Shown piece after piece: positions 44,674 to 46,007 of a stretch of 64,000 nt of DNA. A program made the translations under genes and the position numbers. The stretch comes from Octopus vulgaris (Eukaryota). Location: positions 79,360,001 through 79,424,000 of the forward strand of contig OX597819.1 of assembly GCA_951406725.2 (NCBI GenBank), read 5' to 3'. The notes beneath the pieces were generated by a model, which was not told the DNA's origin, did no database searches, and saw only the letters and a program-made list of their open reading frames with translations. How positions within the stretch are numbered: the stretch's first letter is position 1; every line of letters begins with the position of its first letter.

Positions 44674-44875
44674 CAGCAGAGACCAGAAATTGCAAACACT
44701 GCGAACTGACACGAGAGACAGATCCGTCTTATGATATTCCCGTCATAGTTCAATGACTGGTTGTGCTATTCAGCGGTTGTCCGCATATGAAATACGAGGT
44801 GAAAACGTGAAGCAGTATGTATACATACACGTCACAAACATACACACACACACGCAAGCACATATACATACATAT

Positions 44876-44922
<47 letters not shown>

Positions 44923-45038
44923 CATATACATACATACATATATATACATACATACATACATATATATATATACATACATATACATACATACATACATATA
45001 TATATATATATACATACATACATATATATATATATACG

Positions 45039-45070
<32 letters not shown>

Positions 45071-45401
45071 TATATATACATACATATATACATACATATA
45101 TATATATATATACATACATATATATATATACATACATATATATATATACATACATATATACATATATATATATACATACATATATATATATATACATACA
45201 TATATATATACATACATATATATATACATACATATATATATACATACATACATATATAAGGCGATGGCCTCATGGAGCTAATAAGCGGACAGCTTTTTTC
45301 TTATTTTTATAAGAATGCCATATTAGTATGGCGATAACTATTATTTTCCGGGAACGCTGCCGCTGTTCTCTTTTAGAGAGACTTAGTTATTTTAATATTT
45401 C

Positions 45402-45447
45402 TATTATTGAAAACAAGTGGATGTATTCCACCGAAACTAGGTAAATA
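45402..45447 (+). ncRNA. Hammerhead-like motif 1 (U3-A8 core variant)
   Basis: TTGAAAA-CAA-GTGGA-TGTAT-TCCAC-C-GAAAC-TAG-GTA; GUA triplet at 45441-45443; weak stem I (TATT/AATA). Confidence 0.6.
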
Positions 45448-45480
45448 AAACCATCGAACAGAGATTGTCGGAAGCGACAC

Positions 45481-45551
45481 CTACTGGCTGGCTACGCTGC
45501 ATTGAAAAGGGGCAATACCCCGAAACGCGTCTGTAGCTGCCGGTCAAGTAG
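45481..45551 (+). ncRNA. Minimal type I hammerhead ribozyme 2 (U3-A8 core variant)
   Basis: Stem I GCTGCA/TGTAGC extended by CTAC-TGGCTGGC/GCCGGTCA-A-GTAG; core TTGAAAA; stem II GGGG-CAATA-CCCC; GAAA; palindromic stem III ACGCGT; GUC cleavage after 45531. Confidence 0.88.
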
Positions 45552-45761
45552 TGTGGAGCGACTGACCTCCCTTGTTCGAAGGTTATATGGATACAGTTTG
45601 TGTATCAAATAGCTAACTTAAGGCGATGGCCTCATGGAGCTAATAAGCGGACAGCTTTTTTCTTATTTTTATAAGAATGCCATATTAGTATGGCGATAAC
45701 TATTATTTTCCGGGAACGCTGCCGCTGTTCTCTTTTAGAGAGACTTAGTTATTTTAATATT

Positions 45762-45796
<35 letters not shown>

Positions 45797-45863: not shown

Positions 45864-45997
45864 TAATTTATTATATAGAAGGAGCTTCTACAGGACTAGA
45901 ACTGTTTCATTCAAGAGAAATCTTCAGGAAGCTCCTGAGCTTCCTGAAGATTTCTCTTGAATGAAACAGTTCTAGTCCTGTAGAAGCTCCTTCTATA

Positions 45998-46007
<10 letters not shown>
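45864..46007. repeat. Perfect 71-bp-arm palindrome with a hammerhead-like motif on each strand
   Basis: 45864-45934 is the reverse complement of 45937-46007 (2-nt spacer CT); plus arm reads CTGAAGA-TTTC-TCTT-GAAT-GAAAC-AGTTCTA-GTC (45944-45977). Confidence 0.92.

What the first reader, a model, noticed from the sequence alone, without database searches (positions are those of the whole stretch)
45257..45764. Candidate retrozyme: 1.4 copies of a structured 362-nt non-coding unit carrying two tandem hammerheads
Seen: a 146-bp direct repeat (45257-45402 = 45619-45764) defines a 362-nt period. There is no ORF, and the insert sits in a TA-rich microsatellite. The unit has two HHR motifs whose NUH sites are 88 nt apart (45443, 45531). 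It also has many helices: TTCTTAT/ATAAGAA, GCCATA/TATGGC, AGCGG-CAGC/GCTG-CCGCT, ATAACTA/TAGTTAT, TCGAACAG/TTGTTCGA and GATACA/TGTATC. Known: metazoan non-LTR retrozymes are tandem repeats of a few hundred bp with type I HHRs that yield circular RNAs, and Penelope-like elements (PLEs) carry minimal HHRs in their pseudo-LTRs. Inference: this is a young non-autonomous ribozyme retroelement, copied more than once around a circular RNA or as a PLE partial tandem, and mobilised by PLE RT. Caveat: the 3' end stops ~40 nt before the first cleavage site, not at it.
Basis: partly seen in the sequence, partly recalled or inferred. Interest (0 to 1): 0.9.

Follow-up and report, generated by a model that had tools for sequence, protein, structure and literature searches.

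The report
Ribozyme repeat riding Penelope retrotransposon machinery
This 362-base non-coding repeat with a hammerhead-ribozyme motif is present as thousands of copies in an animal genome, and its copies end the way Penelope-like retrotransposon insertions end, so it is likely copied by those elements' enzyme from two fixed start points at once, probably off a small RNA circle.

Summary
Confirmed. The window holds 1.4 units of a 362-nt non-coding repeat family: 4,219 end-motif hits, three subfamilies, arms up to about 5.5 units, mostly in TA microsatellite. No shared flank or linked PLE ORF was found at 108 loci.

Copies end at two fixed sites about 63 nt apart (unit 88 and 151), not at the ribozyme cuts. 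Of 50 tail-out insertions with both ends at these sites, 49 use one of each. An intact Penelope-like element (PLE) of this genome does the same (9 of 9) and shares the rare U3:A8 hammerhead core. In 16 of 50 pairs neither arm contains the other, which argues against fold-back.

Hammerhead 2 behaves like a ribozyme predicted to need a dimer. Hammerhead 1 is doubtful: its junctions are irregular and its core is broken in one subfamily.

A circular template is inferred, not shown: arrays are uniform for variants, and 0 of 94 crossings of the cut carry an indel scar. One public contig looks ADAR-hyper-edited.

Verdict: a PLE-mobilised non-LTR retrozyme, a new variant of a known kind. The partner PLE is unidentified. 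The scan noted PLE-type inverted insertions on other genomes before.

The parts
45257..45764 (+). One-armed, 5'-truncated insertion of 1.4 units (subfamily A); likely a dead-end copy because each hammerhead motif is present once
   Evidence: (L027)
45257..45618 (+). 362-nt non-coding unit; identical full copies on many contigs
45619..45764 (+). Partial second unit (unit 1-146) ending at the distal (T) end site, followed by (CT)n(TA)n
   Evidence: L026 ends the same way
45338..45349 (+). Proximal (S) end site, unit 82-93, after CTATTAT; 71 of 166 mapped arm ends. Read as an internal RT start site (inferred)
45396..45412 (+). Distal (T) end site, unit 140-156, mostly 146-151, after CTATTAT; 76 of 166 arm ends; coincides with U3 of motif 1
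45402..45447 (+). Hammerhead-like motif 1 (TTGAAAA...GAAA...GTA, H17 at 45443). Irregular junctions, GAAA lost in subfamily B, otherwise nearly invariant including loop II. Likely a protein-recognition element or a relic rather than the processing ribozyme
   Evidence: criteria from PMC3088659 passages
45496..45537 (+). Hammerhead 2, type I, U3:A8 core. Stem I 5-6 bp, stem II 4 bp, stem III 2 bp inside a palindrome (ACGCGT / ACATGT / ACGT in subfamilies A / B / C). H17 at 45531. Predicted to cleave as a dimer
45447..45585 (+). Long predicted rod carrying hammerhead 2 at its tip; 5' truncations pile up at its 3' foot (unit 306-325)
45483..45550 (+). Stretch read A-to-G at 14 of 17 A in run X10 (12 sites at the depth of a single contig); ADAR-like pattern
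44860..45256 (.). TA/CA microsatellite target on the left; (CT)n(TA)n continues on the right to about 45797

Best explanation
This is a family of thousands of non-coding 362-nt repeats whose insertions end at two fixed sites in TA-rich DNA as the genome's intact Penelope-like elements do, so it is likely a non-LTR retrozyme that borrows a PLE RT-endonuclease, probably using a small circular RNA as template. Proposed cycle. (1, inferred) Arrays of two or more units are transcribed, and hammerhead 2 cleaves as a dimer through its palindromic loop III. (2, inferred) The monomer is ligated into a circle, in which a lone hammerhead 2 stays off. (3, inferred from PAc biochemistry) A PLE protein dimer binds just downstream of the start sites, over the conserved motif-1 region, and cuts both strands of TA-rich DNA. 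(4, ends shown, priming inferred) One cut end primes at unit about 151 and the other at about 88 on the same RNA or RNA variant. (5, arrays shown, rolling inferred) Each RT runs on for 0.1-5.5 units straight through the ligation site. (6, junctions shown) The two cDNA ends are joined, mostly at 1-12 nt of microhomology, giving a tail-out inverted insertion. If only one primer is used, a one-armed copy such as the window's results.
For: Copy number: 4,219 exact hits of an end-proximal 14-mer (control 7) and 1,740 of a hammerhead-2 pattern (control 0). Ends: 147 of 166 mapped outer ends fall in two windows; 134 of 174 outer ends run into (TA)n; non-TA targets show 9-13-bp duplications (L006, L096, L134, L145, L149). 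Of 63 simple two-armed loci, 49 are S+T, 1 T+T, 0 S+S and 13 have an end elsewhere (49 of 50, p = 4.5e-14). Control: an intact PLE family gives S+T in 9 of 9 two-armed copies and carries a U3:A8 hammerhead. In 16 of 50 pairs neither arm contains the other. Units within an arm, and opposite arms, are closer than separate insertions (A 0.33 / 0.47 / 1.12%; B 3.25 / 3.81 / 7.5%). Twenty variants in 5 insertions are in every unit that covers them. No 5' pile-up at the cuts (2 of 81 each); 0 of 94 crossings of cut 2 carry an indel. No shared 5' flank at the junction in 40 one-armed copies bar one 68% match, and the tblastn hits to a PLE protein near 5 of the loci are separate fragments. PMC11167929: two internal start sites make the tail, both strands are cut and extended, dimer predicted.
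Against: No circle, cleavage or transcript start was observed; no run is on record as RNA, and contigs cannot separate a circle from a tandem. In PAc, uncleaved RNA is the main template in vitro, and start sites did not differ between strands (PMC11167929). Only 1 of 9 Xenopus retrozyme dimers cleaved in vitro (10.64898/2026.07.22.740005). Neither young PLE family checked shows meaningful nucleotide similarity to the unit, and their tails are 40 and 46 nt against about 63 here. Formal covariation on the hammerheads does not beat shuffles (342 of 500). Across the whole fold 10 pairs change and stay paired while 7 break. The scar test is weak: background indels are only 1.7% per 10 nt. Five variants are in only some units of an array. 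In 34 of 50 pairs fold-back is geometrically possible.
Confidence: 0.6

Rival explanations
1. Same PLE-driven, two-site insertion, but the template is an uncleaved linear transcript of a few long master arrays. The hammerheads are inherited pLTR relics or act only later, and uniform arrays come from master-locus copying.
For: HHR mutants do not affect PAc insertion in vitro (PMC11167929). The lack of scars and of 5' pile-up at the cuts fits uncleaved RNA equally well. Some variants are in only part of an array (L004, L025, L029).
Against: Several sub-lineages each have arrays uniform for their own variants (L160, L164, L168, L178, L158), which needs repeated passage through one unit. Parent flanks are not seen carried along, and only 4 of 107 loci are complex. 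Hammerhead 2 keeps its core and a palindromic loop III in three different forms.
Confidence: 0.25
2. The unit is simply the terminal repeat (pLTR) of an autonomous PLE not yet found, and the loci are its 5'-truncated stumps.
For: Same ends, tail asymmetry, targets and hammerhead variant as autonomous PLEs. Only about 120 of several thousand loci were inspected.
Against: Arms run through up to 5.5 perfect units with no ORF between them. None of 40 one-armed 5' flanks leads into shared sequence or an ORF. None of 46 GIY-YIG loci has the unit as its end; the one real match is an independent insertion on the opposite strand.
Confidence: 0.06
3. The inverted arm is made by fold-back self-priming of one cDNA, or from an antisense template as proposed for rotifer Penelope, rather than by a second target primer.
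For: Microhomology at 47 of 70 inversion junctions; arms share variants; fold-back is geometrically possible in 34 of 50 pairs; proposed in PMC3846280.
Against: In 16 of 50 pairs each arm holds sequence the other lacks. Fold-back gives no reason for the second arm to stop at the other fixed site in 49 of 50 cases.
Confidence: 0.06
4. A replicating viroid-like RNA with its own RNA-to-RNA cycle, whose genomic copies are by-products of PLE capture.
For: Compact structured unit (z = -7.1). Near-identical sequence in runs under seven organism labels. A>G editing dense enough to need perfect double strand.
Against: The regular scan for GAAA-based motifs was made on the + strand only, and no minus-strand ribozyme was noticed. 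Many copies are identical rather than a swarm. Inverted insertions explain double-stranded RNA without replication. The labels may be close relatives or contamination.
Confidence: 0.03

Closest known systems
Animal non-LTR retrozymes (Cervera and de la Pena 2020, PMC7229834; Li, Clavereau and Pollet 2026, 10.64898/2026.07.22.740005)
   Same: Non-coding tandem units of a few hundred bases with a type I hammerhead, low GC, dispersed monomers and multimers, co-occurring with PLEs; mussel units are 350-390 bp.
   Different: Core is U3:A8 with a PLE-type minimal stem III, not the canonical invertebrate form, and a second hammerhead-like motif is present. In the parts I read, those papers link retrozymes to PLEs by co-occurrence and pLTR phylogeny, not by insertion ends. 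Circular RNA was shown there and is not shown here.
EN+ Penelope-like elements, Neptune/Nematis type (Craig 2021, 10.1101/2021.04.23.441226; Arkhipova 2013, PMC3846280)
   Same: Partial tandems, inverted 5'-truncated arm, tail on one end only, (TA)n targets, target duplications of about 9-13 bp, hammerhead in the repeat.
   Different: No ORF; whole element is one 362-nt unit repeated; tail about 63 nt rather than 30-40 (40 and 46 in the two local families).
PAc Poseidon of Anolis in vitro (Frangieh 2024, PMC11167929)
   Same: Two internal RT start sites define the tail; AT-rich target; RNA needed about 55 nt beyond the distal site, which here would be the motif-1 region.
   Different: In vitro the two strands showed no difference in start site; here the two ends of one insertion differ in 49 of 50 cases.
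U3:A8 minimal hammerheads of Schistosoma mansoni Cercyon PLEs (PMC4209133) and natural U3:A8 variants (PMC3088659)
   Same: Same compensated core pair; palindromic loop III; dimer requirement.
   Different: There mostly single motifs tied to PLE ends; here inside a tandem non-coding unit.

Membership tests
Non-LTR retrozyme | Tandem repeats of about 150-450 bp, dimers to multimers | tested here: met
   362-nt unit; in 53 consecutive loci on C1 the longest arm was under 1 unit in 35, 1-2 in 12, 2-3 in 3, 3-4 in 1, 5-6 in 2
Non-LTR retrozyme | Type I hammerhead in each unit | tested here: met
   Hammerhead 2 meets the core (U3:A8 variant) and junction criteria; helices 95% paired in 9 copies of 3 subfamilies against 30-44% when slid. 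Rfam does not detect it
Non-LTR retrozyme | No coding capacity and no LTR-type organisation | tested here: met
   Longest stop-free run 55 codons; loci consist only of unit sequence; PBS and PPT were not searched for separately
Non-LTR retrozyme | Self-cleavage of the transcript | not testable with these tools
   Needs in vitro transcription; predicted dimer-dependent (loop III self-duplex -8.9 / -6.0 / -3.1 kcal/mol for A / B / C)
Non-LTR retrozyme | Expressed as linear and circular RNA | tested here: inconclusive
   Unit junction in contigs of all 4 runs laid, a 392-nt contig closing the unit in X17, ADAR-like cluster in X10; contigs cannot tell circle from tandem and RNA status is a guess
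PLE-mobilised element | [quoted passage not shown] | tested here: met
   147 of 166 ends at two sites; 49 of 50 S+T; control PLE 9 of 9
PLE-mobilised element | Inverted 5'-truncated arm and partial tandems | tested here: met
   63 simple two-armed of 107 mapped loci
PLE-mobilised element | AT-rich or (TA)n targets, target duplications about 8-12 bp when visible | tested here: met
   134 of 174 ends in (TA)n; 13 duplication-like words of 8-13 bp, five in non-TA sequence
PLE-mobilised element | Sequence homology to the pLTR of an autonomous partner | tested here: not met
   No meaningful blastn match to two young families or 46 GIY-YIG loci; other families not examined in depth
Autonomous PLE (ordinary pLTR) | Linked RT plus GIY-YIG ORF | tested here: not met
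   No adjoining ORF at 108 loci; tblastn hits near 5 loci are separate fragments
Unit with two active hammerheads | Both motifs have an intact core and paired junctions in all lineages | tested here: not met
   Motif 1: GTAA in 19 of 19 B copies; extra bases at stems I and II; A.C closing pair in A

The most novel reading that the evidence does not exclude
These insertions are a genomic record of a dimeric PLE enzyme copying one circular RNA twice at once: each subunit primes from one strand of the cut at its own fixed site, 63 nt apart, and rolls round the circle. A former hammerhead has been turned into the enzyme's landing site while a second does the cutting. That would tie animal retrozyme circles mechanistically to PLE reverse transcriptase, explain the inverted PLE structure without self-priming, and make these insertions a running source of perfect double-stranded RNA for ADAR.
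Probability: 0.35. Interest if true: 0.8.

Novelty: new variant of a known kind. Interest (0 to 1): 0.55.

Why it matters
Which enzyme moves animal retrozymes, and how PLEs build their inverted, one-tailed insertions, are both open questions in the papers read. This family is young, short and abundant, so every insertion can be read end to end. It gives a countable rule (one end per start site, 49 of 50) that also holds for an intact PLE in the same genome, and evidence against fold-back in a third of cases. It supplies a 362-nt substrate and two intact, very young candidate enzymes for a direct test in the published in vitro PLE assay. It also shows why U3:A8 hammerheads escape Rfam, and suggests that tail-out copies feed RNA editing.

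Tried and rejected
Rfam: no hammerhead hit.

Partner by sequence: not found in two young PLE families (781-aa and 775-aa frames) or in the GIY-YIG loci. A 2-kb contig in run X10 looked like a possible partner, but the variant it carries is subfamily C. A matching loose end in X2 resembles the flank of genomic locus L183, so it is more simply a locus read-through; the contig itself could not be read.

Dimer-circle signature (variants repeating every second unit): L004 reads C,T,C,T,T and L178 is also irregular; rejected.

Linear cleaved monomer as template: no 5' pile-up at either cut.

Cooperation of motif 1 with hammerhead 2 through loop III: judged poor by eye from the sequences, not computed.

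Formal covariation: not above shuffles with three lineages; one search used a misplaced structure and was discarded.

Expression: no RNA holder on record, which says nothing either way. The seven organism labels cannot be interpreted.

Protein search gave 42-58% relatives, mostly unnamed, and did not name the clade or host.

No structure or complex prediction was run.

Full report
Observation. The exact 146-bp repeat, the 362-nt period, the listed helix words and the microsatellite flanks are all as described. The longest stop-free run is 55 codons. The unit folds as a circle at -121.9 kcal/mol, z = -7.1 against 100 shuffles; the minus strand gives z = -5.3. Both hammerhead-like motifs read TTGAAAA at the core, i.e. 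U3:A8 in place of C3:G8. Rfam finds neither. U3:A8 is a known, active natural variant (PMC3088659, passages) and occurs in Schistosoma PLEs (PMC4209133, parts 1-2 of 4 read).

Family. The window lies in a 2.8-Gb animal assembly. My guess from its repeat content is a cephalopod; this is recalled, not tested. The unit gave 1,105 candidates, 40 scored, 180 matches, many identical. An end-proximal 14-mer occurs 4,219 times (control 7) and a hammerhead-2 pattern 1,740 times (control 0). A second subfamily B is 82% identical to A and older. A third, C, has loop III cut to GAAACGTC (15 of 16 pattern hits, one locus counted on both arms).

Ends. I mapped 108 loci: 25 best A hits, 29 best B hits and 54 consecutive loci on contig C1, after dropping overlapping duplicates and one segmental duplicate; one locus gave no hit. 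Of 166 outer ends, 76 lie at unit 140-156 (T), 71 at 82-93 (S) and 19 elsewhere. Both sites follow CTATTAT. 134 of 174 outer ends run into (TA)n, and five non-TA targets show 9-13-bp duplications. Sixty-three loci are simple tail-out pairs: 49 S+T, 1 T+T, 0 S+S, 13 with an end elsewhere; 40 are one-armed and 4 complex. In the consecutive set alone it is 23 S+T and 0 alike. Inversion junctions overlap by 1-12 nt in 44 of 70, by more in 3, are blunt in 4 and carry inserted bases in 19.

Not a pLTR stump. Forty one-armed 5' flanks share nothing near the junction except one 68% match, and tblastn hits to a PLE protein near 5 loci are separate fragments. Arms reach about 5.5 units without an ORF.

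PLE control. A GIY-YIG search gave 6,136 candidates. One family has a 781-aa RT plus GIY-YIG frame with a Cys-rich linker motif of the Neptune/Nematis type described in 10.1101/2021.04.23.441226 (passages). Most of its nine copies compared are 96.7-99.7% identical to L064, two about 91-93%. Its pLTR has a U3:A8 hammerhead and two ends 40 nt apart in (TA)n. Among 46 loci, 9 were two-armed and all 9 were S+T; 8 of these were picked as opposite-strand pairs from the listing, which does not favour either end. Of the rest, 33 were one-armed S, 2 one-armed T and 2 other. A second family (775-aa frame; 120 of 120 scored copies at 100% amino-acid identity) has ends 46 nt apart. Neither family resembles the unit in sequence, so the partner is open.

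How the two arms arise. Frangieh 2024 (PMC11167929, parts 1-2 of 4 read) showed two internal start sites that define the tail, cutting and extension of both strands, a predicted dimer, and a need for RNA about 55 nt past the distal site. Arkhipova 2013 (PMC3846280, passages) read the inverted arm as self-priming. Here, in 16 of 50 S+T pairs neither arm contains the other, so both were copied from RNA; in 34 fold-back remains possible. Opposite arms differ less than separate insertions (A 0.47 vs 1.12%; B 3.81 vs 7.5%). I infer two coupled primers on one RNA or one RNA variant. That the tail is usually on one end only is already in print. The count and the containment test I did not find in searches, which cover open-licence papers only; bioRxiv supplements were closed.

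The ribozymes. Between A, B and C, hammerhead 2 changes only where change is tolerated: N7, loop II, a closing pair that stays paired (G-C, G-U, A-U), a stem I wobble, and a loop III that remains a palindrome in three forms. Helices are 95% paired against 30-44% when slid, but covariation does not beat shuffles (342 of 500), as expected with three lineages. Over the whole fold 93 pairs are unchanged, 10 change and stay paired, 7 break and 5 meet gaps. Motif 1 has an unpaired A before the core, two extra bases before stem II, an A.C closing mismatch in A, and GTAA for GAAA in 19 of 19 B copies; C keeps GAAA. Yet its sequence, loop included, is nearly invariant, and it starts exactly at the T site. 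I infer a recognition role or a relic.

Circle or not. 5' ends do not gather at the cuts (2 of 81 at each) but do at the 3' foot of the rod (13 of 81 at 306-325; p = 5e-4 against uniform, not corrected for length decay). No indel scar is seen in 94 crossings of cut 2 or 82 of cut 1, against a 1.7% background. At positions covered three or more times within one insertion, 20 variants are in all units, 5 in some and 45 in one. Uniform arrays in several sub-lineages point to repeated expansion from one unit, which a circle provides. An uncleaved linear template from master arrays is not excluded. PMC7229834 (passages) shows circles for other animal retrozymes and names PLEs as the likely mobiliser. 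10.64898/2026.07.22.740005 (parts 1-3 of 5 read) adds co-occurrence and pLTR phylogeny, and found cleavage in 1 of 9 elements.

RNA. Twenty runs under seven organism labels hold the stretch; none is on record as RNA. I laid 4 of them. In X10, 14 of 17 A in unit 227-294 read G, 12 at the depth (7.2) of one contig. No edited A has a 5' G, while two of the three unedited ones do. 211 genomic pieces, some overlapping, carry at most 2 of the 14. This fits ADAR hyper-editing of a sense strand in perfect duplex, most simply a transcript of a two-armed insertion. It is one contig without matched DNA, so a lead only.

Verdict. A real, young, PLE-mobilised non-autonomous ribozyme element (about 0.9 for PLE mobilisation, about 0.6 for the full circle model). 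It is a new variant of the non-LTR retrozyme kind, valuable mainly as a clean record of PLE insertion mechanics.

Noticed in passing
window 45872-45999: A perfect hairpin of about 128 bp (62-bp arms, 4-nt loop; -112 kcal/mol) 110 bp downstream of the insertion, ending in TA repeat; possibly a small foldback element. Its Rfam miRNA hits are below gathering scores.
   Followed up: partly
L077:3968-5887 (G000:C13, near 22,646,000): Three near-identical 594-bp tandem units, each with long terminal inverted repeats (MITE-like); only one weak hammerhead-like match without a clear stem II.
   Followed up: partly
L064:808-2200: The young PLE family has a long upstream reading frame overlapping the start of the RT frame near a T-run, suggesting ORF1 plus a frameshift; read from the sequence only.
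   Followed up: no
L245-L264 and listing: A second PLE family with at least 120 copies at 100% amino-acid identity over 334 residues, tandem period about 4,271 bp; apparently in a current burst. Its hammerhead-like core appears to be C3:G8 with a U4C change.
   Followed up: partly
L007:1290-2290; L150; L188: Some insertions sit at the centre of inverted copies of their own flanking DNA, as if host sequence next to the cut was duplicated in reverse.
   Followed up: no
one search hit list (P0030, P0041, P0055, P0075, P0103, P0107): PLE proteins 42-49% identical to the query are filed under bivalve gill-symbiont bacteria in public databases; probably host contamination of those assemblies.
   Followed up: no
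runs X1-X20: The young subfamily A sequence is held at 91-100% of words under seven organism labels; close relatives, contamination or transfer cannot be told apart here.
   Followed up: partly
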